This document shows, piece by piece, positions 26,474-60,566 of a DNA stretch of 64,000 nt. Under the pieces are notes generated by a model. That model was not told the origin of the DNA, searched no databases, and saw only the letters and a program-made list of their open reading frames with translations. Positions within the stretch are counted from its first letter, which is position 1. Each line of letters begins with the position of its first letter. The DNA lies in NCBI GenBank assembly GCA_035546575.1, contig DASZWN010000002.1, forward strand, positions 187,319-251,318, read 5' to 3'. Made by a program: the position numbers and the translations under genes. This stretch comes from Minisyncoccota bacterium (GTDB lineage: Bacteria; Patescibacteriota; Minisyncoccia; Phycocordibacterales; SBAW01).

Positions 26474-27432
26474 ATTCCTCCAGTAATTTCCGAGACTTCT
26501 CTCGTAATCGCAGCCTGTCTCGCTTTGTTAAACTTTAATGTTAGCGAGCCCCGCATCTCCCCCGCTTTGTCCGAGGCCGACTTCATCGCCACCATGCGCG
26601 CCGAGTGTTCAGAAGCTTGGGTCTCGAGTAATGCGTGGTAGACAAAGATGGAGGCTAGGCGCGGGAGGATTGCGCTGAGCACCTCGCCCTCTGATGGCTC
26701 TATTGTATATACAGACTGTTTTGAATTTGTATCAGATTGCGCTGCATACACACCCCGCACTGGGAGAATATCGTTGACCACCTCCTGGAGCTCCTCAAGC
26801 GAGAGCGGAAAGACAGTGTGTATGGTCGGGCGCTGCTCAAAGGTTGATACGAAGTTTTGATAGACAATTTTAACCACTTCTACCTCGCCCAAAGTAAACC
26901 GTTTTGCGGCCCCACTAACCAAGGTGTCGATAAGCTCCGGCGTTATCTGGTCAGTATTTGGATAAAACGCGCTTATCGTAAAGCCGCGCATTGTAAAAAA
27001 GTCGTTTGCTTTGCGACCTACTGCCACCACCTCTACCTGTGATGGATTGAGACCCATATTGGCAATATCTGCTGCACTCCCGCGCAGCACGGCCGAGTTG
27101 AGAGCGCCGGCCAAACCCTTGTCGCTGGTGATGACTATATACAAAGCTGTCTTGGGTGCGGAAAATGTATCTTCTCGACCATCCCCGCGATGACCTGCAG
27201 GGAGAGAAGACACGTTTTCTGCACCCCTCATGAGCGGATGGCTCGCAAGGTCTTTGCTGCCCGAGGTGCGTGCAAGGATAGAGGCAGCGGCCCGAGCATA
27301 TGCGCGGCCCGAAAGCGCGCGCTGCTGCGCCTTGCGCATCTTGGCAGCAGAAACTGCCTCCATCGCTTTGGTTACTTTTTGCGTCTTCTCGACGCTCTTT
27401 ATTTTAGATTTAATTGCTTTCAGCGCTGCCAT
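26455..27432 (-). CDS. atpG: F-type ATP synthase gamma subunit (carries an in-frame palindromic element insertion)
   Basis: N-terminal MAALKAIKSKIKSVEKTQKVTKAM and ITSDKGLAGALN gamma signatures. Contains the inserted peptide SSLPAGHRGDGREDTFS. Confidence 0.9.
   Translation of the reverse strand: MAALKAIKSKIKSVEKTQKVTKAMEAVSAAKMRKAQQRALSGRAYARAAASILARTSGSKDLASHPLMRGAENVSSLPAGHRGDGREDTFSAPKTALYIVITSDKGLAGALNSAVLRGSAADIANMGLNPSQVEVVAVGRKANDFFTMRGFTISAFYPNTDQITPELIDTLVSGAAKRFTLGEVEVVKIVYQNFVSTFEQRPTIHTVFPLSLEELQEVVNDILPVRGVYAAQSDTNSKQSVYTIEPSEGEVLSAILPRLASIFVYHALLETQASEHSARMVAMKSASDKAGEMRGSLTLKFNKARQAAITREVSEITGGMEAMLA
27161..27219 (-). repeat. In-frame palindromic insertion element, copy 1 (in atpG)
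   Basis: Core GACCATCCCCGCGATGACCTGCAGGGAG flanked by 16-nt complementary arms GAAAATGTATCTTCTC and GAGAAGACACGTTTTC. The core is shared with the copies at 55522 and 60141. Confidence 0.65.
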
Positions 27433-27438
27433 ACAATG

Positions 27439-29004
27439 TTATTTTGCCTGCACAAGGTCCGGGTGCGTCTCTGCAAAGCTCGTGAGCGCCTGCTTGAGGT
27501 GCTCCTCGGTCTGCTCCGCAATGAGCTTTGATTCGCGGATAGACTCAATGACCTCAGGATATTCGGACTCGATATATGCAAGCATCTTCTGCTCGTACTC
27601 CGGCACGCGATCTACTGCCACATCTTTGAGGTAGCCGTTTACCGAAGCGTAGATAGAGATAGCCTGGAGCTCAAAGCCCATCGGATTGCCGTTGCGCTGC
27701 TTGAGCGTTGCCATCATGCGCTGACCAAAGTCGATGCGCTTTTTAGTGTCTGCATCGAGGTCCTGGCTAAACTGCATAAAGGCCTCAAGCTCGCGGAACT
27801 GGGCGAGCTCAAGCTTGATTTTGCCGGAGACCTTCTTCATTGCCTTAGTTTGTGCGGCCGAACCCACGCGCGACACCGAGATGCCCGCGTTGATAGCAGG
27901 ACGAATGCCTTTGTTAAAGAGATCAGTCTCGAGGAATATCTGCCCGTCGGTAATAGAAATAACGTTGGTCGGGATGTAGCCGGAGACGTCGTTTTCCTGT
28001 GTCTCGATAACTGGGAGCGCGGTCAAAGATCCGCCGCCCTTCTCCTTAGAGAGTTTTGCGGCACGCTCGAGGAGGCGGGAGTGGAGATAAAACACATCGC
28101 CCGGATACGCCTCACGGCCCGGGGGGCGGCGCAACAGCAGCGAGAGCTGGCGATATGCAACTGCGTGCTTGGAAAGATCGTCGTAGATCACGAGTGCGTC
28201 GCGGCCCTGGTCCATAAAGTACTCGCCGATAGCAGCGCCCGCAAAAGGAGCCAGGTACTGGAGCGCCGCCGGAGCCGAAGCGCCTGCATCGACAATAATC
28301 GAGTACTCCATTGCGCCCGCATCGCGCAGCTGAGCCATCAAACGCGCAGTCTTACTCTCCTTTTGGCCGATCGAAACATAAATACAAATCGGGCGGCTCT
28401 CCTTCGGCTCAGTCTTTTGGTTAAGGATGGTGTCGATAGCCACGGTCGTCTTGCCGGTGTAGCGGTCGCCGATGATAAGCTCGCGCTGGCCACGGCCTAT
28501 CGGGATCATCGCGTCGATTGCCTTGATGCCAGTGTGGAGCGGCTGGTTAACCGACTGGCGATCCATCACGCCGTACGCCTCGCGCTCAATTGGGTTTTGT
28601 TTGTCTGCCTTGATAGCGCCCTGGCCGTCAAGCGCCTCACCCAAAGGAGATACGACACGACCAATAAGCGCATCGCCCACCGGGATCGAGAGCACCGAGC
28701 CGGTAGACTCGACAGTCATACCCTCGCGCACCAGCGCCACATCGCCCAAAATAATCGCGCGGACAGACTCCTCTTCCAGATTCAAAATAACTCCGTAGAC
28801 TTCGCTTGAGGTTTCAATTGCATCCTTGAGGTTTTTGCCGTGTGCCGTGTCAAAGCGGACCATTTCTGACATCACCGCATTTGAAAGGCCCTCGATCTCG
28901 GCCACACCGTCGGAGACGCGCAGCACAGTACCCGCTCCCTGAGCGCGCTTCTCGGGAGTAAACCCTTCTATCTCTTTTTTAAATTGTTCGATGAAGTTTT
29001 GCAT
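27439..29004 (-). CDS. atpA: F-type ATP synthase alpha subunit
   Basis: Walker A GDRYTGKT and overall alpha-subunit similarity. Confidence 0.95.
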
Positions 29005-29005
29005 C

Positions 29006-29257
29006 TTATTTGCTGGCTACAAGTTTGCGATAAAGTTCGAGAAGATTTCTGGTCTGTTGCCGCTCGGGAGTGTCCTTTTGGTGCATCTCCATGCGGGCTT
29101 TGTGCACCTGGAGCTTTTGATACTCGGAGAAGATTCTTGGCAGAAGTTTTTGATGTCCGCGCTTCTCTAATGCCTGCTTAAGAGCGTCTAAAACTTTTTT
29201 CGGCTCACTCGTTTGTGTTTGCGAGAGCGCGTGCGCGTACATTTCTTCTAATTTCAT
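29006..29257 (-). CDS. atpH: Putative ATP synthase delta (OSCP) subunit, unusually short (83 aa)
   Basis: Occupies the atpH position between atpF and atpA and is translationally coupled to both. Weak resemblance to the delta C-terminal region. Assignment is by synteny. Confidence 0.45.
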
Positions 29258-29703
29258 GCTCGTTTTTCGTTAAGGACCTTTTCAGCTCCGAGCACGATCA
29301 TCTTTGCAACCTCCTCACGACTCTCGGTGATTGCCTGCACTTTCAATTCTTTTGCTTGCGCCTCTGCCTCTGTGAGGATGCGCTGCGCTGCGCTCTCGCC
29401 CTGTGTAATAAGCTCGCGTTCCTTCTGCGAGCCCGCAGTGCGCGCCTGAGAGACAATGGTGTCTGCCTCGCGGCCGGCCTCGGCAAGCTTGGCTGCACGA
29501 GAGTGTTCAATCTGCGCAAGCTCCTCGTGCGCCTTTTGCGCATCTGCTACACCCTGCATAACCTTTTGGCGGCGCTCCTCGAGCATCCGCATGACCGGCC
29601 CGTACAAAAAGTACCAAAGGCCGACAAGCAAGATGCCAAAGTTAAGCCCCTGAATTAAGAGGAGCTTCCAATCAATGCCAAAAGTTGTAAAGATTGCTTG
29701 CAT
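29254..29703 (-). CDS. atpF: F-type ATP synthase subunit b
   Basis: N-terminal TM segment plus a long charged helix (AEAQAKELK...). Confidence 0.85.
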   Translation of the reverse strand: MQAIFTTFGIDWKLLLIQGLNFGILLVGLWYFLYGPVMRMLEERRQKVMQGVADAQKAHEELAQIEHSRAAKLAEAGREADTIVSQARTAGSQKERELITQGESAAQRILTEAEAQAKELKVQAITESREEVAKMIVLGAEKVLNEKRA

Positions 29704-29817
29704 GGGATTATGCGAAGGAAAATGTTCTTAAAAAATAGTCTGGCCCGAGAGAATTCCGCGAAGACGGAATTGCGATACGGGAGACCCGAGGACTTTTTTT
29801 AAGGACATTTTTTGGAG

Positions 29818-30069
<252 letters not shown>

Positions 30070-30072
30070 TTA

Positions 30073-30834
30073 TTAATGCGCTGCCTTGTGGCTCCCATGC
30101 GGCTCCTCGACCGCCAGCTTAATGTACGCCAGGGTAAGGATCGCAAAGATAGCTGCCTGCAAAAGCCCGATAAAGAGCTCAAATGCCATCAGCGGCACTG
30201 GCGCTATATAAGGAGCAAAAAAGGCTATCACCAAAAGGAGGGTTTCTCCCGCAAAGATCGCCCCGAAGAGCCGGAACGACAACGAGACAAGCCGTGCCAG
30301 GTTTCCGATAATCTCGAGCAACCCGATAATAAACCCCATTGCGCCTCCCCTAAAATTAACAAATTTTGAGCCATATTTCAACACGCCGAGCGTGAGGATG
30401 CCGGAAAACTCTGCTACAAAAAAAGCGATGATCGCGAGCGCGAGCGTAGTGTTTAGGTCGGCGCTTGGCACATGGAGGAGCGATGCTGTCTCTCCTTCTG
30501 TATGCACAGTAAACGGCGCGAATATGGGCAGGAATGCAAAAAAGTTTACCGTAAGCACAAACAGGAAAATAGTCGCGATAAGCGGGAAATAGCGGTTTGC
30601 GAGCTTATCGCTCTGGAGGGCCTCATGCACATAGCCATAGACGTACTCATAGGCCATCTCGATAGCGCTCTGGGTGCGACCCGGAGTGAGTTTGAGCGAG
30701 CGACCTATCAAAAAGGCGCCCAGAAGGAGCACGGCCATGATCAGCCAGGTGGTCAAAACCGTGTTGGTGACAGGTATCCCCCACACCGAGAATAAGCGCT
30801 CAGCTGCGAGCGTGATATGCAGCCCTGACTCCAT
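30073..30834 (-). CDS. atpB: F-type ATP synthase subunit a
   Basis: Conserved arginine region LSFRLFGAI, and 5-6 TM segments. Confidence 0.9.
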   Translation of the reverse strand: MESGLHITLAAERLFSVWGIPVTNTVLTTWLIMAVLLLGAFLIGRSLKLTPGRTQSAIEMAYEYVYGYVHEALQSDKLANRYFPLIATIFLFVLTVNFFAFLPIFAPFTVHTEGETASLLHVPSADLNTTLALAIIAFFVAEFSGILTLGVLKYGSKFVNFRGGAMGFIIGLLEIIGNLARLVSLSFRLFGAIFAGETLLLVIAFFAPYIAPVPLMAFELFIGLLQAAIFAILTLAYIKLAVEEPHGSHKAAH

Positions 30835-30984
30835 ATATAGGTATGTTATAGCACAAAAATTTACATCTGGCTTATCGTATTAGAGAACATCTATACCGAT
30901 GTAGTCAATAGTGTAAGAACTCTAAAAGTATAGCGTCTTCATGTAGGTGCTACAGGACGCTTAGTAGATAACCTATATACAGAT

Positions 30985-31299
30985 ATGCCCTTTATTGCTA
31001 TTGCTCTCGCAGTTTCGTTGTTTCTTGGAGGCTCAGCCGTGGTGGCACAGACTCCGCAGGCGCATAGCGCAGCGGCGCACGCAGCTCATGCCTGGGACTT
31101 TTTTGAAGCAAAAGTAACCGGCCACGAGCGCGTTGATGCAGACACTACTGCTACAAGCACTACGCAGGTACAAGGCGGACTCCGCGTCCGCTCTGATGCC
31201 GACGCAGATGCAAAGGCCGCTGATGATCGCGCAAATGGAAACGCATCTAGCGACATCAAGCTCAATGCAGACGGCTCTCTCAAAGTAAACGTGTTCTAA
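30985..31299 (+). CDS. Small secreted hypothetical protein (signal peptide, Ala/Asp-rich)
   Basis: ORF with an N-terminal signal-like hydrophobic segment, followed by a strong terminator. Confidence 0.4.
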   Translation: MPFIAIALAVSLFLGGSAVVAQTPQAHSAAAHAAHAWDFFEAKVTGHERVDADTTATSTTQVQGGLRVRSDADADAKAADDRANGNASSDIKLNADGSLKVNVF

Positions 31300-31344
31300 C
31301 GCCTGGGCGGGGTTGTAGTCATTCCTCCACATCGGGTTGCAGAC

Positions 31345-31377
31345 AAAAACTCCCCGCTATTACGCGGGGAGTTTTTG
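31345..31377. terminator. Bidirectional intrinsic terminator (AAAAACTCCCCGC-TATTAC-GCGGGGAGTTTTT)
   Basis: Perfect 13-nt arms that include the A and T runs. Confidence 0.75.
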
Positions 31378-31384
31378 TTGCGGA

Positions 31385-31879
31385 CTATTCCTGTGCTGAA
31401 GGTGCAGTTGGCTCCTGCGGCATTGGTGTTGTCGGCGGTACTTCGACAGGCGGCGTCTGAGCCGGTGTACCTGTATCAGGTGTCTGTGGTGGCATGTCAA
31501 TGTCGTTAACGGGTAATGGCTGCTCAGGAAGTATATCTTGTATCGTATCAGTTCCACTAATCGTTACGATAGGGTCGGATATCTCAAGCGGTAGCGGAGG
31601 CTCGTCCGACGTTTCGTCCACGAACGATTCTCCGGAGAATGTAACTACCGCCGCGCTTATCTGAAGCGGCTGAGGCTCCCAGGTCCCCGCCTGGAACGTA
31701 TTGGCTGTCGCTTTTTCCTGGTTAAGGAAAGCGGAGAGGGTGTTGCCTATAGCTGCAATACTCCACAGCATAAGGCAGCATGCGCCGATTATAACCGCCA
31801 CCCGCGTGAGCGGGTCAGACAGTTTAGTCAACACGCGGCCGTGCAGATTGTTTTGAGTTGTAGATGGGTTGTGCTGCAT
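31385..31879 (-). CDS. Small TasA/camelysin-like protein with SipW-cognate-type signal peptide and Pro-rich C-terminus
   Basis: N-terminal ...AAIGNTLSAFLNQEKATANTFQAGTW matches the SipW-cognate motif class. The start is uncertain: ATG at 31879 or GTG at 31834, which overlaps the sipW stop codon. Confidence 0.5.
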   Translation of the reverse strand: MQHNPSTTQNNLHGRVLTKLSDPLTRVAVIIGACCLMLWSIAAIGNTLSAFLNQEKATANTFQAGTWEPQPLQISAAVVTFSGESFVDETSDEPPLPLEISDPIVTISGTDTIQDILPEQPLPVNDIDMPPQTPDTGTPAQTPPVEVPPTTPMPQEPTAPSAQE

Positions 31880-32426
31880 GTGATGGTGAGGGTTTGCGTT
31901 CCGCTTCGGATCGCGTAAAGCGAGACGAGCGCATACGCATAAGTTCGCGCGCAATTTTGCCTAGCTCTTCGAGGATAATGAACGCTGCGGGTACTCCGAC
32001 CAAGAGCATAAAGCCCAGTGGCTTGCGCGCGAAGTCGAGCACATAGCCTACAAACGGAATCGTGAGTAGCACTTTGCCATGCACCTCTCCGATCGGCGTG
32101 GGCGTTGGATCCGGAGCATCGTTCGCATCGCCTTTGGTCGTAAAGACTCTGTCCGCTCCTGTGCCCTCAACCGCAACAATACGGTGAGTGGTCGGGATCT
32201 GCGTTTTTGTGTCTTGGCCAAAGGTAATGATGTCGCCAATCTCGTAACTGCTCGCGGGCATATCTATGACGATCCCGCCGGTCTTAATAGTCGGCTCCAT
32301 CGAGCCCGACTTGACTACCTTTACCTGGATGTGCGCCAAGGGCACGAGCGAGATCATGAGCAGACCGCCAAGCACGGCGACTGCCGCTACAAACATCCAA
32401 TAGATTCCTTTATAGAGCCATTGCAT
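31824..32426 (-). CDS. sipW: Signal peptidase I, SipW/archaeal-ER type
   Basis: N-terminal TM segment, then the catalytic SGSMEPT motif and a downstream His. Embedded among TasA-like genes. Confidence 0.8.
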   Translation of the reverse strand: MQWLYKGIYWMFVAAVAVLGGLLMISLVPLAHIQVKVVKSGSMEPTIKTGGIVIDMPASSYEIGDIITFGQDTKTQIPTTHRIVAVEGTGADRVFTTKGDANDAPDPTPTPIGEVHGKVLLTIPFVGYVLDFARKPLGFMLLVGVPAAFIILEELGKIARELMRMRSSRFTRSEAERKPSPSHAAQPIYNSKQSARPRVD

Positions 32427-32432
32427 ACGTTA

Positions 32433-33680: not shown

Positions 33681-33700
33681 ATGCGTGTGCTGATAATTGA

Positions 33701-35026: not shown

Positions 35027-35066
35027 GTCAGATGTTCAGTGAATGCTGGTTTCCCGTTAAGAGAAA

Positions 35067-36611: not shown

Positions 36612-36682
36612 TAGTAAGATTGATTATTTCTAATTTTCTAATTCTTTCGCTGCGGCTATGAGACGACCGACCTCGTTACTCA

Positions 36683-36730
36683 AATAAAAAGGCCGCCTCC
36701 TGGTGCGTGAGTACGCAACAAAAAGCGGCC
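36683..36730 (-). promoter_or_regulatory. Terminator-like hairpin (GGCCGC...GCGGCC followed by TTTTTATTT on the minus strand) in the leader region upstream of the TasA-like operon
   Basis: Read from the sequence. It lies about 75 nt upstream of the first tasA-like start codon. Candidate attenuator or upstream terminator. Confidence 0.35.
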
Positions 36731-37094
36731 CATCTATGGGTGCCTGCCTTGCGATTCGCCGGAAACACAATCCCCATGTGTGTATTCCAAAACTGCTATG
36801 GATAATGTTGACGGAACAGAACTCTAAACAGAAACCCTGTCGCTTTTGTTGCGACGTAAACGAAATGTAGCATCACAAAAATGAAGCTAGAGTAAAGTCG
36901 AATATATTTTTGTTGAAAACTCTGTGGGCAACACGTTGGCAATCATGTATAACCTGTTGATAGAAAATTCGAGAGTATTTTTTAGTTACACGCAACGGAT
37001 TGACAGATTCTTTTGAGAGCGCATAGTGAGAGTATTGGGAACCAGCCCGGCCATGCGCCGACGGTTCTTTACACTCAAATAAGAGAGGCCTACT

Positions 37095-37457
37095 ATGCGG
37101 CTCATTCGCAGGCTTTTACTAGGGTTGTGCCTCCTTCCAGGAGTTGCGCAGGCGGGACCCGCCTTCGAGGAAGATCGCGACTTTCTGAACAAGAGTCACC
37201 TGTATTGCGAGGGGGAAACGGCGGAGAATCTTCCCTTCTTTGCTATTGTCGACATGGAAAACGAAAAAGACGTTGCCTCTATGGAGGAGATGGGAATATC
37301 CTGCAGGATATTCAAGGGCAGTAACCTTACGTTCTTGGGCTCTCTCGCCATAGACGTCAAAGGCAATACGCCAACCTACAAGGTGACCATCTACGAATTT
37401 TGCGACGACAACCATGTCAGTTGGTATCACTGGGAGTACGAGAATATTCGCTACTAG
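37095..37457 (+). CDS. Small secreted Cys-containing hypothetical protein (120 aa)
   Basis: RBS AAGAGAGG, signal peptide MRLIRRLLLGLCLLPGVAQA. Contains the 18-bp palindrome AATATCCTGCAGGATATT. Confidence 0.5.
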   Translation: MRLIRRLLLGLCLLPGVAQAGPAFEEDRDFLNKSHLYCEGETAENLPFFAIVDMENEKDVASMEEMGISCRIFKGSNLTFLGSLAIDVKGNTPTYKVTIYEFCDDNHVSWYHWEYENIRY

Positions 37458-38050: not shown

Positions 38051-38593
38051 ATGGACATGCTCCCCAACTCGATAACGATCACTATCGTATTGCTGACCGC
38101 ATTTCTTTCTTTTATCACGGCTATTAAATACGGGGTCGAGGACGACTTTGTACGTACACGGTTCATCATGACCGCGTTCTTTTTCTTTATAGTAGCAACG
38201 CTCACCGTATCGTTTTGGCACTATACCTTCGACACGCTCCCCTACACGGTGCCTGCATGGGGTTTAGGCGCCTTGATCGGCTATATATTGGGCGTACGCA
38301 CCGAGCAGCAGAAGTTGCGTGACCAAGGTTTGGCTTACTACACCGAGCACTTTGCGCATATCCATATGCAAGACATCGAAAAGCTCAACTGGTGGGCTGT
38401 GATCAACTTCTACTCCGTCATAAGTGCGCTTATTATGATCAATTTGGTGGGCCTAAGCACCGTGATCTTTAAACAAGCCGAGAGTTGGGCGATCATCACG
38501 AGCGTCGTGGGAGCGTTTCTGCTCGGCACCATCGCTCCGTACCTAGTTCATCTTTGGAGCCTGCCTGCCGGCAGGCAGGTATCAAATAAATAG
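38051..38593 (+). CDS. Hypothetical integral membrane protein
   Basis: Start chosen at MDMLPNS. 5 or more TM segments. The 3-prime end overlaps the 20-bp palindrome CCTGCCTGCCGGCAGGCAGG. Confidence 0.5.
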   Translation: MDMLPNSITITIVLLTAFLSFITAIKYGVEDDFVRTRFIMTAFFFFIVATLTVSFWHYTFDTLPYTVPAWGLGALIGYILGVRTEQQKLRDQGLAYYTEHFAHIHMQDIEKLNWWAVINFYSVISALIMINLVGLSTVIFKQAESWAIITSVVGAFLLGTIAPYLVHLWSLPAGRQVSNK

Positions 38594-39286
38594 ACCTGCT
38601 GATATCAAAGCACCGCATACTATCAAAAGCACAACGAGCGAAATATAAAATACGATCCTTGCGCGGCGGCGCTGCTTATCATTCTGCGGGCGTCTAACCA
38701 AGAGCGGCACGCCCGCATTGGCGTACTCGTCGTAGCGGTAGCGCGCAATCGCCAAAAAGTGCGGTAGCTGCCATACAAACAGTATTGCAAAGAGCCACAA
38801 GGCGGTCATATCTAGCGCATGGGCAGCAGCAACGTAACCCACGACCGGCGGCATAGCGCCCGCAACAGCACCCGGAAAAAGGGCGAGGCCCGTACGCGGC
38901 TTGAGCGGCGTATAGATAAGCACGTAGACAACAAATCCGATAAGCGCCATATCGAGCGAGCGCATGTCGAGCGGGAGCATAAGCAGTATCCCGACCGCAA
39001 GCAGTGCAAACCCGAACACGAGCGCATGTGCCGAGACAATACTGCCCGATGGGAGCGCGCGCTTTTGAGTGCGCTCCATTTTGGCGTCGATAAACCGGTC
39101 TGAGTAGTTATTAAAGACGCATGCGCTTGCAACAATGCACGCAAGACCTAGCACCATGGCAGCAAACGCTTTCCAGTCGACTACACCATGCGAGCCAAAT
39201 ATAAATGCAGCAGCCGCAACCGCCACATTCATGTAGACCATGCGCGGCTTGGCGAGGCGATAATACGAGCTAATCAGTGTCGGCAT
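38582..39286 (-). CDS. cyoE: Protoheme IX farnesyltransferase (heme O synthase)
   Basis: UbiA-family prenyltransferase motifs (NNYSDRFIDAKMERT). Last gene of the cyo operon. Confidence 0.8.
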   Translation of the reverse strand: MPTLISSYYRLAKPRMVYMNVAVAAAAFIFGSHGVVDWKAFAAMVLGLACIVASACVFNNYSDRFIDAKMERTQKRALPSGSIVSAHALVFGFALLAVGILLMLPLDMRSLDMALIGFVVYVLIYTPLKPRTGLALFPGAVAGAMPPVVGYVAAAHALDMTALWLFAILFVWQLPHFLAIARYRYDEYANAGVPLLVRRPQNDKQRRRARIVFYISLVVLLIVCGALISAGLFI

Positions 39287-39632
39287 GAGGGAATATATTT
39301 TCTCCTTTAAATATATCGATGTCGGACATCTGCATATGCTCCAGGTTGGTCATTATCCAAAGCGTACCAACAACAAGAATTAAAACGACAACAACCGCAA
39401 ACACGAGCGCGGTTAAGTTCCACCGCGGCTTGCGCTCCTGCCCTATATGCAAAAAGAAGATCAGCTGCACACATAGCTGTGCGAGGGCCAGGATAACAAA
39501 CCCGAATCTAAGCTCCTGGTGCGTCGGGAATGAGTGCGAGGTAGCTCCGTGCAACCATAAGAGCCCGAGCGGCACGAATGTGAGGAGTATTGAGAGTATA
39601 AAACCGGTTATGTAGGCGTGTTGCGGTTTCAT
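39270..39632 (-). CDS. cyoD: Quinol oxidase subunit IV
   Basis: About 120 aa, 3-TM CyoD/QoxD-like protein in the expected operon position. Confidence 0.65.
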   Translation of the reverse strand: MKPQHAYITGFILSILLTFVPLGLLWLHGATSHSFPTHQELRFGFVILALAQLCVQLIFFLHIGQERKPRWNLTALVFAVVVVLILVVGTLWIMTNLEHMQMSDIDIFKGENIFPHADTD

Positions 39633-39635
39633 AGT

Positions 39636-40205
39636 TTAGAGCGAGCCAAACAGATACACAAACGTAAAGATAAAGATCCAGATAATATCGAGGAAGTGCC
39701 AGAACAAGCTTAGTATGGTAAGCCGGCGCACCGCAGTATCGGTAAATCCCCGCCTCCATATATAGGCTGCGAGTATCAGCATCCAGAGCAGGCCGATCGA
39801 TACATGGAGCCCATGCGTGCCAAGGAGCACGAAGAACGAGGAGAGGAACGCGCTCACCCCAGGCCCGCTCCCCTCCCCAACTAGATGCACAAATTCGCTA
39901 CCTTCAAGCAATATGAAGAAGAATCCCAGTATCCACGTTGCCGCAAGCGCAAAAAGGGACTGCGCTTTTTTACCCTCGCGTGCCCGCAAGACTGCGATCC
40001 CTGCGGTAAAGCTGGAGCTGAGCAGTACTACTGTTTCCAAAAGCACAAACGGCAGGTCAACAATCGTTTCTATAGATACTCTGCCAAAGGTTGCATCTTG
40101 GAGCACTGCATAGGTGGCAAAAAGGCCGGCAAACAAAACGCAGTCGCTCATGAGATATACCCAGAAGCCGAAGGTTACTTTGTCGAGTAGAGATTCTTCT
40201 TTCAT
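39636..40205 (-). CDS. cyoC: Heme-copper quinol oxidase subunit III
   Basis: Subunit III-like 5-TM sequence ([16 protein letters not shown]). Confidence 0.8.
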
Positions 40206-42115
40206 ATGGTTATGGTGTGCTCTGTGTGTTCCTCAAGTGAGCGGATTATCAGCACGATAACGATAGCCACGATACCAAGTACTGCGAGCCACCACATGTG
40301 CCATACCATCGCAAAACCGAACGCAAATGCACACGCAGCGATAATACACCCAATAAACGAGTTATTTGGAATTTCAATCTCGACTTTCTTTTCAGAAATA
40401 GTTTTAAGATTTTGTTTTTTTATCTCCCACCACGCATCTCTGTCGGTAACAGTCGGGATCACCGCAAAGTTGTAGTGCGGCGGCGGCGAAGAGGTCGACC
40501 ACTCGAGCGTGCGGCCGTTCCATGGATCGCCAGTAGTATCGCGATACTGGTTGCGCTGTTTGATGCTGACAACAAGTTGGAGGAATTGGAAAAAGATCGC
40601 AAGCGCTATAACGCATACGCCAAGCGCGGCAACAATAAAGAGCGGCTGCCAGCTCGGGTCTACCACATCGAGCCTGCGCGTTGCGCCCATAAAGCCCAAA
40701 ATGTAGAGCGGCATAAACGCGAGCAAAAACCCGGTGATCCAGCTCCAAAAGGCGTAGCGACCAAGGCGCTCGTTGAGGGTAAAGCCAAATAGTTTTGGGA
40801 ACCAGTATGCAAGCCCCGCAAAATAGCCAAACAGCACGCCTCCGATAACCATGTTATGGAAGTGCGCTACCAAAAACAGGCTGTTGTGGAGCTCAAAGTC
40901 CGCGGCGGGCACCGACATAAGCACCCCTGTCATGCCGCCGATAATAAACGTGCTGAGGAAGCCCATAAACCACAGCATTGGCGTTGGGAATAAAATCCGC
41001 CCGCGGAACATCGTAAACAGCCAGTTAAACACCTTAACGCCTGTTGGTATCGCAATCACCATGGTCATGATGCCAAAGAACGCGTTTACATCCGCTCCCG
41101 CGCCCATCGTAAAGAAGTGGTGCACCCATACCAAAAACGAGAGTACGACAATGCTCATGGTCGCAACGACCATTGAGGTATAGCCAAAAAGCTTTTTTTG
41201 CGAAAAGACCGGAACAATTTCGGAGAATATGCCGAAGGCTGGCAAAATAAGGATATATACCTCCGGGTGGCCCCAGGCCCAAATGAGGTTGACGTACATC
41301 ATGGCCGAGCCGCCTAAATCGGTCGTAAAAAAGTGCATACCGAGCGTGCGGTCGAGTGCTAGGAGCGCTAACGTGACCGTGAGTATCGGAAAGGCAAATA
41401 TCACAAGGATCATCGAACCGAGGCTGGTCCAGACAAAAATCGGCATGCGCATGAGGCTCATACCCGGCGCGCGCATTTTTATAATCGTTACCAAAAAGTT
41501 AATACCGGCAGCAAGCGTGCCCACGCCCGCTATCTGGAGCGCCCAAATGTAGTAGTCAACCCCTACCCCGGGGCTATACGCGAGTTCGGAGAGAGGCGGG
41601 TATGCAAGCCAGCCGGTTGCGGCAAAGTCGCCGATTACGAGCGAGGCGTTGAGAAGCATCGCGCCCACAACCGTGAGCCAAAAGCTTATCGAGTTGAGGA
41701 GCGGGTAGGCCACGTCGCGTGCGCCGATCTGCAGCGGCACGATAAAGTTAAGCAGCGCAAACATGAACGGCATCGCGACAAAAAAGATCATGATAACTCC
41801 GTGCGCTGTAAAAATCTGCCCGTAGTGCTCGGGGGTGAGAAACCCGGGGCTCCCGGGCAAGCTGGTGGCCTGTTGCACGCGCATCATTGCCGCGTCGGCG
41901 CCGCCGCGGAATAGCATGACAACCGAGAGTATCAGATACATCACGCCGATTTTTTTATGGTCGAGGGTTGTGAGCCACTCGCGGTAGAGCCAGCCCCACG
42001 CACGGTAATAGAGCACGAGCCCCATTACCGCAATGCCGCCAAAGACCACCATGAGTTGCGGTACTGTCTCGATCGGTCCATGTATGAATGCTTGTGGGGT
42101 AAGGATGCCAAACAT
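40202..42115 (-). CDS. cyoB: Heme-copper oxidase subunit I
   Basis: [17 protein letters not shown] and other conserved His ligand regions. 637 aa. Confidence 0.95.
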
Positions 42116-42116
42116 A

Positions 42117-42935
42117 TTAGTGATGATGCGCGCCAGGGCTCAGGAGGTCCATGTACTTTTCCATGATCGTAGTATACAGACCATCTTCTACCTCTCCATA
42201 ATATGCCACAGGGTCGCCAGTGCTTGGCCGAGCAAGAAAAGTATACGAATCGTCGGAGAGCACATTGGCGGAGAGCTTGGTCGTTTGTGCCCATGCATCA
42301 AACTCGTCTTCCGGCACCGCTTCGACCACGAACTTCATCCCCGCAAAACCGGCACCACTATAGTTGGCCGAGCCGCCCGCAAAGGTGCCCGTCTCGCTCG
42401 CTTCTAGGTTTAGTACATTGCTCATGCCGGTCATGGCATAAATCTGGCCGCCGAGCTGCGGCACCCAAAACGAGTTCATCGGTGCATCGGCAGTAACTTC
42501 AAACTGTACCGGGCGGCCAACAGGAATGCGCAGATAGTTTATGGTTGCGATTCCCTCTTCCGGATAGATAAAAAGCCACTTCCAATTGAGCGCTACAACC
42601 TGCACCACCAATGGCGGTTCACCCCGAGCAGAGTCGAGGGGCTTATTGGGCGCAAGCGCGTGCGTGCTGCTCCAGGTGAGGGCGCCCAGAATAAGGATGA
42701 TCTCAAAGGGGATTGCCCACCAGACTAACTCGTCCATTTTGGAGTGCTCCCAATCGGGCATATACTTTGCCTTGGTGTTGCCGGCGCGGTATTTCCATGC
42801 AAAAAAGAAAAGGAGTATGTAGACCGGGATAGCCACAATGAGCATAAACTCCACTGCGTGGAGCATAAGCCCGCGCTCGGCAAGGGCAATCGTGCCCGAT
42901 GGTTGTAGCAGTGGGAATGCGCTCGTGAGCGGCAT
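42117..42935 (-). CDS. cyoA: Quinol oxidase subunit II (lacks CuA cysteine ligands)
   Basis: Cupredoxin-fold subunit II with [10 protein letters not shown] but no CxxxC CuA motif, which indicates the quinol-oxidase type. Confidence 0.8.
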
Positions 42936-42942
42936 GTGATTT

Positions 42943-44109: not shown

Positions 44110-44171
44110 CTGGTGCGTCTCACGCACCAAAATGTAAAAGATACGCACGCATTGTATTTTCGAAGGCTCTG

Positions 44172-44242
44172 TCGGAGTGCCGAGAATCGGACTCGGGTCT
44201 TACGCACCCGAAGCGCATGTAATACCACTATACCACACTCCG
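44172..44242 (-). tRNA. tRNA-Pro-like (anticodon CGG) with a non-canonical T-loop (C55) and a 20-bp extended perfect stem (44160-44179 / 44236-44255)
   Basis: Hand fold: acceptor CGGAGTG/CACTCCG, anticodon stem TGCGC/GCGTA with loop TTCGGGT, T-arm CCGAG-TCCGATT-CTCGG. Thirteen extra perfectly paired bp extend beyond the acceptor stem. Confidence 0.4.
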
Positions 44243-44346
44243 ACAGAGCCTTCGACGAGGCATGTGTTACCATTCCCAAAAGGAAACAGATGCAGCAATA
44301 CTAGCCGAATTTCCAGAAAAAGAAAATGTGCTAAGATGCGGTATGT

Positions 44347-45417: not shown

Positions 45418-45438
45418 GAAATAGTGAGGAGTCTTCGA

Positions 45439-56745: not shown

Positions 56746-57213
56746 TGTTGTGGGACCCTTAGGATCCCGTCTGGAGGGTTTAGCCCTCCTGATGGGACCA
56801 TATGGTCCCCGATCGCGATGCCAACATTGCTGCCAGCTCGCACATCGATAGCTCTTGGCTTTGCACCATGAGCGAGTCATTAATTTCGTTTCATCTCGAA
56901 CGTCCATGCCCTCCTCGCGGAAGTTACTTCTGCTCGAACTGATTCGAAACTCACGACTTGATAAGAGTTGTCAGCAGTCGCCACCGCCGATCGGTGAAGC
57001 TTTGACCAAACTTCTCTCTTACCTCGCAACCATGTCCGAATGGTCATCCCGAATTTCGAACTTCAGGTACTCGATTCTGATTGCCTCGGCGTCACTTTCT
57101 TTCTTACGATCAATCGTGCGCCGGTAATGTATGAGTCTACTCCTCTCACTTTGACCTACAAGTGGATAACTTATTGGAGAATATTTTTTAAAAATCCGCA
57201 AGAGTTCCTATTC

Positions 57214-59286
57214 TTATTTCTTAGGTTTTTTTGGTTTTCCTTCGCTTCCCTGCCCGCTTAAGGCATAAATTTCATCTCTTATTAGCGCGGCGGTTTCAAA
57301 GTCGAGATTCTTTACCGCCTCGGCCATTTCAGCTCGCTTTGCTGCTATAAATTTACGTGGATTCTTTTTATACTCTGCATGCTCGATGGTCATCATCTCT
57401 ACAACCGCCTTGCCGTGCTCGCTACGCAGCTCTTCAGTAATATCTTTTATCGCTTTGCTGACCGTTTTTGGAGTGATGTTGTGCTCTTTGTTGTAGGCCA
57501 TCTGGATTTCGCGACGACGATTGGTCTCGCTGATAGCGCTTGTAAGCTGCGGTGTCATTTCGTCGGCATACAAGAGTACGCGACCGTGTATGTTGCGCGC
57601 CGCGCGCCCGATAGTCTGTATCAGCGATGTCTCGCTGCGCAAAAAGCCCGATTTATCGGCATCTAGAATGGCGACCAGCTCCACCTCGGGCAGGTCAAGC
57701 CCCTCGCGCAGAAGGTTAACGCCTACCAAAACGTCGTACTCACCCTTACGCAGGTCGGTGAGGGTGGTAATGCGGTCGAGCGTCTCTACATCGCTGTGCA
57801 GATATGCCGCTTTTATCTTGCGATCCTTAAGAAACTCCGCCAAGTCCTCGGCCATCTTTTTGGTAAGTGTGGTCACCATGATGCGCCCGCCATGCTCGAT
57901 CACTTTATCGGCCTCTTCAAGAAAATCTTGCACTTGGCCTTTTATATCGTGGTCGAAGCTGCCGGTGACCGGACGGACGATAATCTCGGGGTCGACAAGG
58001 CCAGTGGGGCGTATGATCTGCTCCACCACATTTGAGCCCGAATGTTCCTTTTCGTACGGTCCTGGTGTAGCGGAAGTGTAGATTACCTGACCTACGCGCT
58101 CCTCAAACTCTTCGAACTTGAGCGGGCGGTTGTCTATTGCCGACGGCAGGCGGAAGCCGTACTCAACCAAATTTTCTTTACGTGCGCGGTCGCCCGCATA
58201 CATGCCACCGATCTGCGGCACTGTAACATGGCTTTCGTCGATAACGGTCAAAAAGTCGGGGGTACCGTCTGCTTTGTGCGGAAAGTATTCCAAAAGGGAA
58301 AATGGCGGCTGTCCCGGCGCGCGGCCGTCGAAATGGCGCGAGTAATTTTCGATCCCATTGCAGTATCCGATCTCGCGGATAAGCGCGAGGTCGTGATTGG
58401 TGCGGCGCTTGAGGCGCTCGGCCTCCAGCATTTTACCTTTACGCTCAAATTCAGCGAGCTGCTCTTTTAACTCGTGCTTGATATCCTCGATAGCGCGTAC
58501 GCGCTCGTCCTCAGGCGTTACGTAGTGTTTTGCGGGGAAAAGGAAGAGTGATTCTTTCGGCTCCTTTTCCGCGCGCGTTATGGCATCGATCACCCGTACG
58601 CGCGAGATCTCTTCGCCCGCTTGGCCTGAGCTTGTCGAATGGCCAAACTCTACGCGGTATAGTACGCGCTCGCCAGTCGGCATAATCTCGATCGAGTTCC
58701 CTATTGCGCGGAAGGTCCCCGGCGTAATGTCGGCGTTGGTGCGGCTAAAGTACACCGAGATAAGCTCGCGTATGAGTTCGGCGCGGTTTTTCTTAAGCCC
58801 CGGTGCAATCTCGAGATGTACTTTGCGATACTCCTCGGGCGAGCCCAGCGCGTAGATGCACGAGACCGATGCAACAATGATCACATCTTTGCGGCTCAGC
58901 AGCGCCTGGGTTGAGGCGTGGCGCAAGCGGTCGATCTCTTCGTTGATCTGCGCCTCCTTCTCTATATACGTGTCGCTATGCGGGATATAGGCCTCCGGCT
59001 GATAGTAGTCGTAGTAAGAGACAAAGTATTGCACCGAGGCATCAGGAAAGAACTCGCGATACTCTTGTGCGAGCTGCGCCGCGAGCGTTTTATTGTGTGC
59101 AATTACGAGCGTGGGCTTGCCGATTTGCTCAATAACATTTGCAATCGTAAATGTTTTGCCCGAGCCGGTTACACCAAGGAGAGTCTGGTGCTCTTTCCCC
59201 GCTTTAATACCCTTTACAAGGGCCTCTATAGCCTTGGGCTGGTCGCCGGCAGGCTTGTAGTCGGACTTGATCTTAAAGACAGCCAT
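57214..59286 (-). CDS. uvrB: Excinuclease ABC subunit B
   Basis: Walker A GVTGSGKT, a helicase DEAH-like DESH motif, and a C-terminal UVR domain (ALIRDEIYAL). Confidence 0.95.
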   Translation of the reverse strand: MAVFKIKSDYKPAGDQPKAIEALVKGIKAGKEHQTLLGVTGSGKTFTIANVIEQIGKPTLVIAHNKTLAAQLAQEYREFFPDASVQYFVSYYDYYQPEAYIPHSDTYIEKEAQINEEIDRLRHASTQALLSRKDVIIVASVSCIYALGSPEEYRKVHLEIAPGLKKNRAELIRELISVYFSRTNADITPGTFRAIGNSIEIMPTGERVLYRVEFGHSTSSGQAGEEISRVRVIDAITRAEKEPKESLFLFPAKHYVTPEDERVRAIEDIKHELKEQLAEFERKGKMLEAERLKRRTNHDLALIREIGYCNGIENYSRHFDGRAPGQPPFSLLEYFPHKADGTPDFLTVIDESHVTVPQIGGMYAGDRARKENLVEYGFRLPSAIDNRPLKFEEFEERVGQVIYTSATPGPYEKEHSGSNVVEQIIRPTGLVDPEIIVRPVTGSFDHDIKGQVQDFLEEADKVIEHGGRIMVTTLTKKMAEDLAEFLKDRKIKAAYLHSDVETLDRITTLTDLRKGEYDVLVGVNLLREGLDLPEVELVAILDADKSGFLRSETSLIQTIGRAARNIHGRVLLYADEMTPQLTSAISETNRRREIQMAYNKEHNITPKTVSKAIKDITEELRSEHGKAVVEMMTIEHAEYKKNPRKFIAAKRAEMAEAVKNLDFETAALIRDEIYALSGQGSEGKPKKPKK

Positions 59287-59300
59287 AAAAGGCTATTCTA

Positions 59301-60566
59301 TCATTTTTGATACTCTGACAGAAACGCTTCTTTATATTTCTCAAAGGTACCGTCGATAATTGATGCGCGGATTTTTTTCGTGAGATTCGCTAAAAAGTAG
59401 AGATTGTGCTGGCTTGCGAGTATCGGCCCGAGCATCTCACCCGTGCGAAAGAGGTGATGGATATAGCTTTTGGTATAACGCTTGCAGACCGGGCACGCGC
59501 ATTCGGGGTCTATAGGGTTCTGATCCTCTTTGTACTCGGCATTTGGGATCTGGATCTTACCCTTGTTGCTGTAGAGCCCGCCGGTGCGACCATTGCGCGT
59601 TGGGAGCACGCAGTCAAAGGTGTCGCACCCTGCCGCAGCACCAATAAACAAATCCTCGGGCTCGCCGATGCCGAGCAGATGGCGCGGTTTTTCTTTTGGC
59701 AGTTCCGCATTTACTTTGTCGAGAATGCCGAGCAGATCCCATTTGCTAAAAGACCCGCCGATGCCGTAGCCGTCAAAGTCCATGGTGGCTATTTCGCGGG
59801 CGCTCTCGATGCGCAGGTCGGCAAAGCGTCCGCCCTGGACGATGCCGAAGATCCCTTGCTTTGCATTTTTATCGATATTGCCGCGATGCGCGCGCAGAGA
59901 GCGCTCGGCCCAGCGATGCGTGCGGTCCATCGCCTCTTTTTGGTACTCATATTCGGCGTTTGGCGCAGTACACTCGTCGAACGCAAAGATAATGTCGGCG
60001 CCGAGCGCATGCTGGATCTCGATCGAGCGCTCAGGAGTAAAGCGGTGGAGCGAGCCGTCGATATGCGAGGTAAACGAAACGCCTTCGTCGTCGATGACGG
60101 CAAGCTTGCCGTGGCTTGTTGCCAGATCCTCATCCCAGACAGCCGGAACAGAGTCGTTTGACCGACCATCCCCTTGCTGGCCTGCAGGGAGGGCAGACGA
60201 CTCTGCTCCGGCTGCTTTGCTAAATTTAGAAATCTTTTTTCCAAAGCCGACGCCAAGCGAGAATACCTGAAAGCCGCCGGAGTCGGTCATGCTTGGCCTA
60301 TCCCACGTCATAAATTTGTTTACGCCGCCGCCTTTTTCAACTATTTTTTCGCCCGGGGAGAGATATAAATGGTAAGTGTTTGCGATAATACCCTGCACCC
60401 CAAGCTCTGCGAGCCGCGAGGCTTCAATCCCCTTAACATCGGCTTTGGTAGCAACCGCAATAAACGCAGGCGTCTCAATAGTGCCATGGGGTGTATGCAA
60501 AACTCCGGCTCTCGCAAGAGAGCCGGTGAGTTCTTTCTCAATCGTGAGCGAAATCGGCCGCATCAC
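59301..60566 (-). CDS. tgt: Queuine tRNA-ribosyltransferase (carries an in-frame palindromic element insertion)
   Basis: Catalytic Asp region (MTDSGGFQVFSL) and a Zn site CxCxxC...H (ECACPVCKRY...HHL). Contains the inserted peptide SSALPAGQQGDGRSNDSVP. Confidence 0.9.
   Translation of the reverse strand: MMRPISLTIEKELTGSLARAGVLHTPHGTIETPAFIAVATKADVKGIEASRLAELGVQGIIANTYHLYLSPGEKIVEKGGGVNKFMTWDRPSMTDSGGFQVFSLGVGFGKKISKFSKAAGAESSALPAGQQGDGRSNDSVPAVWDEDLATSHGKLAVIDDEGVSFTSHIDGSLHRFTPERSIEIQHALGADIIFAFDECTAPNAEYEYQKEAMDRTHRWAERSLRAHRGNIDKNAKQGIFGIVQGGRFADLRIESAREIATMDFDGYGIGGSFSKWDLLGILDKVNAELPKEKPRHLLGIGEPEDLFIGAAAGCDTFDCVLPTRNGRTGGLYSNKGKIQIPNAEYKEDQNPIDPECACPVCKRYTKSYIHHLFRTGEMLGPILASQHNLYFLANLTKKIRASIIDGTFEKYKEAFLSEYQK
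60141..60213 (-). repeat. In-frame palindromic insertion element, copy 3 (in tgt)
   Basis: Core CGACCATCCCCTTGCTGGCCTGCAGGGAGGG flanked by 19-20 nt complementary arms AGCCGGAACAGAGTCGTTTG and CAGACGACTCTGCTCCGGCT. Confidence 0.65.

What the first reader, a model, noticed from the sequence alone, without database searches (positions are those of the whole stretch)
27161..60213. A family of in-frame palindromic insertion elements inside three essential genes (atpG, uvrA, tgt), analogous to Rickettsia palindromic elements
Three copies share a conserved core (plus strand: GACCATCCCC-N7-CCTGCAGGGAG) and sit at 27161-27219 in atpG, 55522-55589 in uvrA and 60141-60213 in tgt.

All three are in the sense orientation and the same reading frame of their host gene, and the ORFs continue through them. 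Each adds a roughly 20-aa peptide built on a common pattern: [40 protein letters not shown] and ESSALPAGQQGDGRSNDSVP.

Each core is flanked by 16-20 nt arms. Within a copy the arms are almost perfectly reverse-complementary, but between copies they differ. For example GAAAATGTATCTTCTC/GAGAAGACACGTTTTC in atpG versus AGCCGGAACAGAGTCGTTTG/CAGACGACTCTGCTCCGGCT in tgt. So every copy can fold into a hairpin of about 60-70 nt in DNA or mRNA, with co-varying arms.

That pattern is what one expects either from selection on a structure or from a hairpin-generating insertion mechanism. In-frame, structure-preserving insertion into conserved proteins is the hallmark of RPEs in Rickettsia. I do not know of it being described for this kind of organism.

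The core also carries the 8-bp palindrome CCTGCAGG, which occurs four times in the window.
Basis: partly seen in the sequence, partly recalled or inferred. Interest (0 to 1): 0.85.

Follow-up and report, generated by a model that had tools for sequence, protein, structure and literature searches.

The report
Protein-coding hairpin insertion elements in Paceibacterota
Three housekeeping genes of an uncultivated ultra-small (CPR/Paceibacterota) bacterium each carry an in-frame ~75-base DNA palindrome of one repeat family, a counterpart of the Rickettsia palindromic elements that I could not find described for this phylum.

Summary
The core GACCATCCCC-N7-CCTGCAGGGAG occurs three times (none expected by chance), each inside a 73-75-nt hairpin read through in frame in atpG, uvrA and tgt of a Candidatus Paceibacterota genome.

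Each insert falls in an alignment gap against solved structures. Many close orthologs lack it: segment lengths are bimodal, and some relatives are empty at both sites that could be paired on one contig.

The same three sites are hot spots. Relatives carry the same core, a sister core (TCCGCTGCAGG-N7-GGGGACGCTGCA), other cores, or the same core inverted.

The arms are not unrelated. They are 48% identical between sites (chance 25%) and drift by double compensatory changes (74 two-sided against 2 one-sided cells), which points to maintenance of a DNA palindrome. The core is far better conserved, even at synonymous positions.

No known RNA family, transposase, consistent target duplication, phage or plasmid match, or prior description in this phylum was found.

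Best reading: an RPE-like, translated, selfish palindromic insertion family, a new variant of a known kind. Its means of spread and the reason for core conservation are unresolved.

The parts
27154..27226 (-). Element copy 1 in atpG. 23-nt arms (GGGTGCAGAAAACGTGTCTTCTC / GAGAAGATACATTTTCCGCACCC) around a 27-nt core (TCCCTGCAGG-TCATCGC-GGGGATGGTC, host sense). Encodes ...GAENVSSLPAGHRGDGREDTFSAP...
   Evidence: RNA fold -38.7 kcal/mol, z -7.3; 20 Watson-Crick pairs and 3 transition mismatches; 77.6 bits. Net +20 aa against the empty ortholog L039 and against PDB 6n2y.
55518..55592 (-). Element copy 2 in uvrA. 22-nt arms around the core TCTCCCTGCAGG-TCGTCGA-GGGGATGGTCGC. Encodes ...[24 protein letters not shown]...
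   Evidence: 78.2 bits. 27 query residues correspond to 3 residues of UvrA 2r6f. L033 has a different short hairpin insert at the same site.
60140..60214 (-). Element copy 3 in tgt. 21-nt arms around the core CCCTCCCTGCAGG-CCAGCAA-GGGGATGGTCGGT. Encodes ...AGAESSALPAGQQGDGRSNDSVP...
   Evidence: I1; -51.1 kcal/mol, z -5.9; 81.7 bits. +16 aa against empty orthologs. Model pLDDT is below 50 over residues 99-153.
26455..27432 (-). Host gene atpG (ATP synthase gamma, 325 aa; empty orthologs are 304-305 aa).
53935..56583 (-). Host gene uvrA (882 aa; 852 aa in the insert-free relative that carries P0007).
59301..60566 (-). Host gene tgt (421 aa; empty orthologs are about 405 aa).
53400..53520 (-). 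Possible older or other-family insert in uvrC. It is an imperfect large palindrome: two inserted blocks flank the host residues FSSKK. It lies at the site where the close relative L022/L027 has an intact copy of the element. Assignment is uncertain.
   Evidence: The covariance model does not detect it.

Best explanation
The three sequences are copies of a family of short (about 65-80 nt) protein-coding palindromic insertion elements. Each has two 18-25-nt complementary arms around an asymmetric 27-33-nt core. They reside in frame in exposed, structurally tolerant loops of housekeeping proteins in Paceibacterota (CPR) bacteria.

They behave like the Rickettsia palindromic elements: selfish or neutral non-autonomous DNA that arrives as a discrete unit. 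It survives only where the added ~20 residues, rich in Gly, Ser, Ala, Pro and charged residues, do no harm.

Shown:
- The inserts are discrete, lineage-specific and in frame, and they sit at recurrent hot spots.
- There are several core families, each seen in both orientations.
- The arms of different copies are homologous but diverged. They stay complementary almost only through double (Watson-Crick to Watson-Crick) changes.

Inferred:
- The inserts are transcribed and translated with the host protein.
- Arm complementarity is kept at the DNA level by intrastrand template switching (quasipalindrome correction). The same process, or recombination between the arms, can flip the core.
- The core is conserved because it is the part recognised by whatever machinery propagates or maintains the element. 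That machinery was not identified.
For: - Discrete insertion: segment lengths are bimodal at both sites. Tgt has 34/120 orthologs at 12 aa against a mode of 25-28 aa. AtpG has 60/120 at 8 aa against a mode of 27-28 aa.
- Alignment gaps against solved structures, and a disordered region in the Tgt model.
The window has three copies. L033 has three elements in tgt and uvrB plus a short hairpin in uvrA within 12 kb. L038 has no family copy and only three modest long hairpins in 21 kb.
- Turnover: Tgt of L032 is 87% identical to the window's but carries another core family at the same site.
- Copy-paste: an identical 20-21-nt core at six independent sites in atpG, uvrA, tgt, uvrC and uvrB (two sites).
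- Arm homology across sites: 48% against 25%.
- Covariation: 24 of 25 pairs with changes on both sides; 89% paired against 61% (shuffled) and 45% (slid).
- Only 2 one-sided cells, and 208 Watson-Crick pairs against 12 transition mismatches with no strand bias.
- Inverted cores at the same sites.
- All 113 filled orthologs in the two alignments keep an open frame.
- The RPE literature describes the same behaviour, including different groups at the same locus in orthologs (PMC2229807, PMC10969869, PMC3767692). Template switching as a keeper of coding palindromes: PMC6649704.
Against: - No consistent target-site duplication. Only one 9-nt direct repeat was seen, at L033 uvrB site 1.
- No transposase-like gene in the window.
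- No two copies share the same arms, so there is no direct sign of recent transposition.
- No intergenic copy in about 155 kb searched.
- Cores are better conserved than the synonymous sites of their host genes, and than their own arms: 9/9 and 7/8 third positions against 0.52 and 0.46 gene-wide. A purely neutral resident copy should not show this.
- Forward copies always use one frame although other frames are also stop-free.
- Translation is not demonstrated.
Confidence: 0.62

Rival explanations
1. A functional structured nucleic-acid signal. The hairpin, with its sequence-specific core, would be a cis-acting DNA or RNA element under selection. Possible roles include a binding site for a lineage-specific protein, an mRNA processing or stability signal, a translational pause, or a replication or repair signal. 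Its peptide would merely be tolerated.
For: The pattern is the classical signature of a functional structure: a conserved core with covarying stems. Synonymous positions of the core are invariant between genomes whose host-gene fourfold sites are near saturation. The apical N7 and the arms vary freely.
Against: - Many close relatives lack the element at the same sites, and some at both sites examined.
- Different cores substitute for each other at one site.
- The core works in either orientation relative to the transcript.
- Many orthologous copies have decayed cores.
- The near absence of G:U pairs argues against an RNA helix under selection.
- No Rfam family matches.
Confidence: 0.2
2. An intron-like or bypassed element. 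The hairpin would be cut out of the mRNA, or the ribosome would hop over it, as in T4 gene 60 or the mitochondrial 'byp' elements. The extra residues would then never appear in the protein.
For: Very stable hairpins within coding sequence (-39 to -51 kcal/mol). CPR bacteria are known for unusual insertions in rRNA genes (my own knowledge, not tested here).
Against: - Every copy and every decayed derivative keeps a whole number of codons and no stop in the host frame. This holds for 70 filled Tgt and 43 filled AtpG orthologs. A removed sequence would not need that.
- There is no take-off/landing codon pair with an intervening stop, and no bulge-helix-bulge geometry (read from the sequence).
- Caveat: gene calling would miss broken genes.
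Confidence: 0.04
3. A protein-level module. The LPAGx(R/Q)GDGR peptide, which contains RGD in two copies, would be the selected entity, for example as a surface interaction motif. The palindrome would be incidental.
For: The same frame is used at six independent sites although other frames are open. N7 varies, yet it mostly encodes H, R or Q.
Against: Selection on the protein cannot hold synonymous third positions fixed. The inverted core encodes a quite different peptide (TSPRRPAET) at the same place. The host proteins are cytoplasmic enzymes. The region is predicted to be disordered.
Confidence: 0.04
4. Ordinary variable loops, or an assembly or amplification artefact (inverted chimeras), with the repeated core arising by coincidence.
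For: All sequences come from metagenome assemblies. The sites are variable loops in any case.
Against: A 21-nt core occurs three times in 64 kb with 0 expected. The same elements recur at the same codons in independent assemblies from NCBI, JGI, ENA and Logan. All are in frame.
Confidence: 0.01

Closest known systems
Rickettsia palindromic elements (RPE-1 to RPE-10; also protein-coding palindromic repeats of Wolbachia)
   Same: Palindromic repeats that fold into long stem-loops. They insert in frame into conserved housekeeping genes without destroying them and encode a conserved peptide. They fall into several families that proliferate in particular lineages. Orthologs may carry different families at the same locus. 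The hosts have reduced genomes and depend on other cells (PMC2229807, PMC10969869, PMC3767692, PMC1779305).
   Different: - About half the size: 65-80 nt against 100-150 bp.
- An unrelated phylum.
- No intergenic or RNA-gene copies seen so far.
- The identity of a copy lies in a 27-33-nt central core, while the arms have drifted to 48% identity.
- The arms stay almost perfectly complementary, whereas RPEs are reported to lose repeat identity with time (PMC6649704).
- The core is found in both orientations at one site.
- Sequence relatedness to RPEs was not tested.
Bacterial MITEs that occur intragenically (Correia/NEMIS 107-bp form, ERIC/IRU, Coxiella QMITE, Anabaena MITEs)
   Same: Small non-autonomous repeats with a hairpin-forming transcript and open frames that can fuse in frame to host ORFs (PMC2229807, PMC10969869).
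   Different: MITEs are defined by conserved terminal inverted repeats matching an IS transposase, and by target-site duplications. Here the termini are the least conserved part, no consistent duplication is seen, and no partner IS is known.
Coding palindromes in mitochondrial genes of Nematomorpha
   Same: Near-perfect inverted repeats inside protein-coding genes that are translated. They are gained and lost between species and actively kept perfect, with template switching proposed as the mechanism (PMC6649704).
   Different: In hairworms both arms encode conserved residues of the protein itself, and there is no shared core between palindromes. Here the whole palindrome is an insertion and carries a family-specific core.
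REP/REPIN elements with RAYT transposases
   Same: Short palindromic repeats whose populations are specific to a genome or lineage.
   Different: REPs are extragenic, 20-40 bp, tagged by GTAG or CGTC at one end, and conserved in the stem with a variable loop (PMC3733652). Here the pattern is the reverse (conserved centre, variable stem), the location is intragenic, and no tag or RAYT was seen.

Membership tests
Rickettsia palindromic elements (RPE) | Interspersed repeat able to fold into a long stem-loop | tested here: met
Rickettsia palindromic elements (RPE) | Inserted in frame in conserved protein genes, absent from orthologs outside the lineage, at structurally tolerant positions | tested here: met
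Rickettsia palindromic elements (RPE) | Sequence homology to one of the RPE families (membership is by HMM, 100-150 bp) | not tested
   No RPE models or Rickettsia sequences were available to the tools. The size (65-80 nt) and the phylum differ, so I claim analogy only.
Rickettsia palindromic elements (RPE) | Insert retained in mRNA and protein (shown for R. conorii gmk) | not testable with these tools
   Only open frames are available as indirect support.
MITE | Terminal inverted repeats conserved among copies and shared with an autonomous IS | tested here: not met
   The arms are the least conserved part (48% between sites). No IS or transposase in the window. A genome-wide search was not possible.
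MITE | Target-site duplication flanking each copy | tested here: inconclusive
   The filled/empty comparisons show one 9-nt direct repeat (L033 uvrB site 1) and none that is clear elsewhere. Divergence blurs the boundaries.
REP/REPIN | Extragenic, 20-40 bp, GTAG or CGTC tag, conserved stem | tested here: not met
   All 11 or more copies are intragenic. The ends read GGGTGCAG, GTGACGCT and CAGCCGGA. The stem varies.
Any Rfam RNA family (ribozymes, riboswitches, cis-regulatory hairpins) | Match to a curated covariance model | tested here: not met
   At gathering thresholds only three tRNAs match. The permissive search gives only generic miRNA-precursor hairpin matches far below threshold.
Translational bypass or intron-like element | No constraint on frame or stops inside the element; take-off/landing codons or splice structure | tested here: not met
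   Frame and length are preserved in all copies and in decayed derivatives.

The most novel reading that the evidence does not exclude
The elements may be a distinct class of hairpin mobile or maintained DNA. In this reading its identity is carried by the loop (a sequence-specific core recognised by an unknown structure-specific enzyme), the stem need only pair, and the core is kept or renewed independently of its arms. That could happen by nucleotide-level selection, by core replacement within resident palindromes, or by in-situ flipping. The result would be a living population of protein-coding palindromes across Paceibacterota.
Probability: 0.22. Interest if true: 0.85.

Novelty: new variant of a known kind. 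Interest (0 to 1): 0.62.

Why it matters
In-frame colonisation of conserved proteins by palindromic DNA has been treated as a peculiarity of Rickettsia and Wolbachia. Finding an independent and structurally different family in Paceibacterota has three consequences.

First, Paceibacterota are another lineage of small-genome, host-dependent bacteria, so the phenomenon may be a recurrent outcome of that lifestyle.

Second, it provides a second system in which to study how proteins acquire new loops from selfish DNA.

Third, it matters in practice. These inserts inflate and diversify protein lengths in CPR genomes, create hot spots of apparent indels in marker genes, and could serve as lineage markers.

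The contrast between a highly conserved core and freely covarying, almost wobble-free arms also offers a natural test case for DNA-level palindrome maintenance.

Tried and rejected
- A genome-collection scan with a variable gap returned 22 loci, of which only 2 were real; the rest were single chance hits in unrelated phyla. The metagenome and viral scans added nothing beyond the same two elements. The source genome itself is not in those DNA collections.
- A profile of the 22-aa element peptide, doubled to reach the 40-aa minimum, found nothing usable in the large protein database. This cost the last protein search.
- I tested the idea that the arms are copied from host flanking sequence (fold-back synthesis). 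It was rejected as a general rule. Net insert sizes at atpG and uvrA equal the whole palindrome. The arms of L033 uvrB site 1 have no similarity to the empty-site flanks. Arms at different sites are homologous to each other. The window's uvrC insert and the mini-hairpin in the empty Tgt site leave some room for local templating.
- The idea that cores are strictly genome-specific was rejected: L033 carries different cores in different genes.
- A bias towards G:U pairs on one transcript strand was not significant (3 against 9).
- A restriction-site explanation (CTGCAG/CCTGCAGG avoidance) was rejected: CTGCAG occurs 28 times against about 17 expected from composition.
- Ogata et al. 2002 (PMC186582) is not in the held library.
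Full report
**1. The observation**

The pattern GACCATCCCC-N7-CCTGCAGGGAG matches exactly three times in the window, at 27177, 55542 and 60164, all on the + strand. Dinucleotide-preserving shuffles gave no match.

The host ORFs lie on the minus strand and read through the copies:
- atpG, 26455-27432
- uvrA, 53935-56583
- tgt, 59301-60566

A purpose-written hairpin scan puts the three palindromes at 27154-27226, 55518-55592 and 60140-60214. The arms are 21-23 nt and the centres 27-33 nt. Apart from terminators, a tRNA and two intergenic hairpins, these are the only long hairpins in 64 kb: 7 observed against 0-2 in shuffles.

On the host-sense strand the atpG and tgt copies fold at -38.7 and -51.1 kcal/mol (z -7.3 and -5.9). 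The uvrA copy reaches only -26.9 kcal/mol (z -0.6) there. On the + strand all three fold well: -38.9, -37.4 and -50.1 kcal/mol (z -8.0, -4.6 and -6.1).

A covariance model built later finds no further copy in the window. One small correction: CCTGCAGG occurs five times, not four.

**2. Source organism and surroundings**

The Tgt and AtpG proteins are identical to proteins of a 'MAG TPA: Candidatus Paceibacterota bacterium' on a 327-kb contig.

The window is ordinary chromosome. It holds the atp operon, uvrABC, tgt, ddl, leuS, tRNAs, a haem-copper oxidase operon and an AcrB pump. No transposase-like gene was found.

**3. The segments are insertions**

Against solved structures, each element falls in an alignment gap:
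- UvrA: 27 query residues correspond to 3 residues of 2r6f.
- ATP synthase gamma: 25 residues correspond to 5 residues of 6n2y.
- Tgt: 53 residues correspond to 5 residues of 1ozm. Part of this is a lineage-specific extension into which the element is inserted.

An AlphaFold model of Tgt is confident overall (mean pLDDT 85, pTM 0.84). The exception is residues 99-153, which have pLDDT below 50 and contain the insert.

Among the 120 closest orthologs of each protein, the length of the segment is bimodal (alignments):
- Tgt: 34 orthologs have a 12-aa segment, and 70 have at least 8 more residues (mode 25-28 aa).
- AtpG: 60 orthologs have 8 aa, and 43 have at least 8 more (mode 27-28 aa).

Codon-level comparison with the empty loci L038 and L039 shows net in-frame additions of 16 aa in tgt and 20 aa in atpG. 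For uvrA, the insert-free relative carrying P0007 encodes 852 aa against 882 aa in the window. L038 and L033 carry other inserts at that site.

Four pairs of Tgt and AtpG orthologs have matching longest-contig lengths, so I take each pair to lie on one contig: P0007/P0128, P0012/P0164, P0065/P0190 and P0092/P0181. All four pairs are empty at both sites. The element load therefore differs between lineages.

**4. Further copies and hot spots**

Scans of public DNA for the exact core found only two real elements outside the source genome. All other hits lacked arms and were chance.
- One is in tgt of Parcubacteria GW2011_GWA2_50_10b (L018, the same contig as L026).
- The other is in uvrC of a relative whose UvrC is 86% identical to the window's (L022, the same element as L027).

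Fetching DNA for orthologs chosen from the protein alignments showed that the same three sites, plus sites in uvrB and uvrC, are hot spots for hairpin inserts:
- L034 tgt holds the same core with two transitions.
- L033 uvrB holds two related elements that are absent from the window and from L034.
- L036 and L037 atpG and L033 uvrB site 1 share a sister core, TCCGCTGCAGG-N7-GGGGACGCTGCA. It is identical to the base, although arms and N7 differ.
- At tgt, L032 (87% identical to the window's Tgt) carries another core family, and L040 carries a third.
- L033 uvrA has a short, different hairpin at the window's uvrA site.

Cores occur in both orientations.
- The atpG element of L035 has outer arms nearly identical to the window's, but its core matches the window core on the opposite strand at 22 of 27 positions.
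- The tgt 'family 2' and 'family 3' cores are reverse complements of each other, 22 of 26.

Because the arms are palindromic, flipping in place and independent insertion in reverse cannot be told apart from sequence alone.

**5. Anatomy and mode of evolution**

I aligned eleven family-1 copies from six independent sites.
- The core is invariant at CT-A-G-C ... GGGGA-G-T.
- The seven central bases vary.
- The arms are much less conserved.

The arms are still homologous. Left arms of copies at different sites are 48% identical, against 25 +/- 1.3% for composition-matched shuffles. Same-site copies are 60% identical. The core without N7 is 81-86% identical.

Stem covariation is extreme. Of 25 pairs, 24 show changes on both sides (74 cells), and only 2 cells show a one-sided change. 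Pairing is 89%, against 61% in shuffles and about 45% when the partner columns are slid.

Counting stems directly gives 208 Watson-Crick pairs, 12 transition mismatches (3 would be G:U on the sense strand and 9 on the antisense strand; not significant) and 2 transversions.

The near absence of wobble pairs and of strand bias fits a palindrome kept perfect at the DNA level better than an RNA helix under selection. The known process that does this is intrastrand template switching, also called quasipalindrome correction. It has been proposed for the coding palindromes of hairworm mitochondria (PMC6649704). That the process acts here is an inference.

**6. The puzzle of the core**

Fourfold-degenerate sites of the host genes are only 36-58% identical between these genomes. 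Yet in pairs chosen at the protein level, synonymous third positions inside the core are almost invariant:
- L036 against L037: 9 of 9, where the gene-wide value is 0.52.
- Window tgt against L034: 7 of 8, where the gene-wide value is 0.46.

So the core either is under nucleotide-level constraint or is younger than the arms around it. Protein-level selection cannot explain this.

Many orthologs nevertheless show decayed cores, for example ASGQNGNALKND. Any constraint is therefore not universal.

Forward copies at six sites all use the same frame, although other frames are also free of stops.

I found no consistent target-site duplication (one 9-nt direct repeat at L033 uvrB site 1). No two copies share the same arms, and there was no intergenic copy in 155 kb.

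**7. Explanations**

The best-supported reading is an RPE-like family of selfish or neutral protein-coding palindromes. They are gained and lost in particular lineages, filtered by tolerance of the host protein, translated with it, and kept palindromic by DNA-level templating.

Its weak points are the unidentified means of spread and the unexplained conservation of the core.

The main rival is a functional DNA or RNA signal, which would explain the core. It fits poorly with four facts: many relatives lack the element, different cores are interchangeable at one site, the core occurs in both orientations, and wobble pairs are lacking.

Removal from the mRNA or ribosomal bypass is unlikely, because frame and length are preserved in all 113 filled orthologs and their decayed forms. 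This rests on gene calls, which would miss broken genes.

A protein-level module is contradicted by the synonymous-site conservation and by the very different peptide of the inverted core.

Artefact is excluded by recurrence in independent assemblies.

**8. Comparison with what is known**

No Rfam family matches. There is no similarity in the phage or plasmid collections.

RPEs are 100-150-bp palindromic repeats found fused in frame in conserved Rickettsia genes. They are translated, at least in gmk. They fall into several families with lineage-specific proliferation, and orthologs sometimes carry different groups at one locus (PMC2229807, PMC10969869, PMC3767692, PMC1779305).

The present family behaves in the same way, but it differs in five respects:
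- It is about half the size.
- It lives in an unrelated phylum.
- It has a conserved centre with drifting arms.
- Its arms stay near-perfect.
- Its core occurs in both orientations.

It fails the defining tests for MITEs (conserved termini; target duplications were inconclusive) and for REPs. Sequence relatedness to RPEs could not be tested.

Full-text searches found no description of such elements in Patescibacteria/CPR. The library does not cover all journals.

**9. Verdict**

I rate it a new variant of a known kind, of moderate to high interest. The unresolved behaviour of the core is what could make it more than that.

Noticed in passing
window 44160-44255: tRNA-Pro(CGG) (44171-44242, minus strand) sits inside a perfect 20-nt inverted repeat (44160-44179 / 44236-44255). 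Its acceptor stem is therefore extended by about 11 further base pairs between leader and trailer. This may be a processing signal.
   Followed up: no
window 3132-3189; L036 3108-3184: An intergenic hairpin with A/T-rich arms. Its loop (GGTTAGACTTGGCC...GCA on one strand) is conserved in a relative, where the hairpin lies between atpD and atpC. This looks like another hairpin family with a conserved loop, this time outside genes.
   Followed up: partly
window 29719-29811; L039 658-720: A hairpin between atpE and atpF. The arms are 17 nt (AAAATGTTCTTAAAAAA) and the loop 59 nt. The loop ends (TAGTCTGG...CCCGAGGACT) are conserved at the same operon position in a relative. It may be an intra-operon processing or attenuation signal.
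   Followed up: partly
window 53400-53520 (uvrC): The window's UvrC has two inserted blocks (RGLREAPQRDGARTER and IEYSREPAFVA) flanking the host residues FSSKK. The blocks are imperfectly complementary to each other, and part of the left arm is host sequence (EDE). This hints that some arms may be templated locally. The relative L022/L027 has an intact element at this site.
   Followed up: partly
window 58618-58641 (uvrB): An 8-aa extra segment, HSTSSGQA (RVEFGHSTSSGQAGEEISRV), is absent from L033 and L034 UvrB. It may be a remnant of a deleted element, since it contains SSGQ.
   Followed up: no
L038 10001-11218 (empty Tgt site): The 'empty' site contains a 7-bp stem with an 11-nt loop, CTTCCGG-N11-CCGGAAG. 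It shares the string CCGGAGCAG with the window's element arm, but in a different reading frame. It is either a remnant of a centre deletion or a pre-existing hairpin that acts as a target.
   Followed up: no
window 38582-42935 and 17723-22409: This Paceibacterota genome encodes a haem-copper oxidase set (COX1, COX2, COX3 and a UbiA-family prenyltransferase) and an HlyD/AcrB-type efflux system. These are unusual for a group generally described as lacking respiratory chains.
   Followed up: no
window 53935-56583 (uvrA): In the alignment to G. stearothermophilus UvrA (2r6f), query residues 2-26 match chain residues 279-303 and residues 27-52 match 417-442. The ~113-residue segment between them in the solved protein appears to be absent here.
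   Followed up: no
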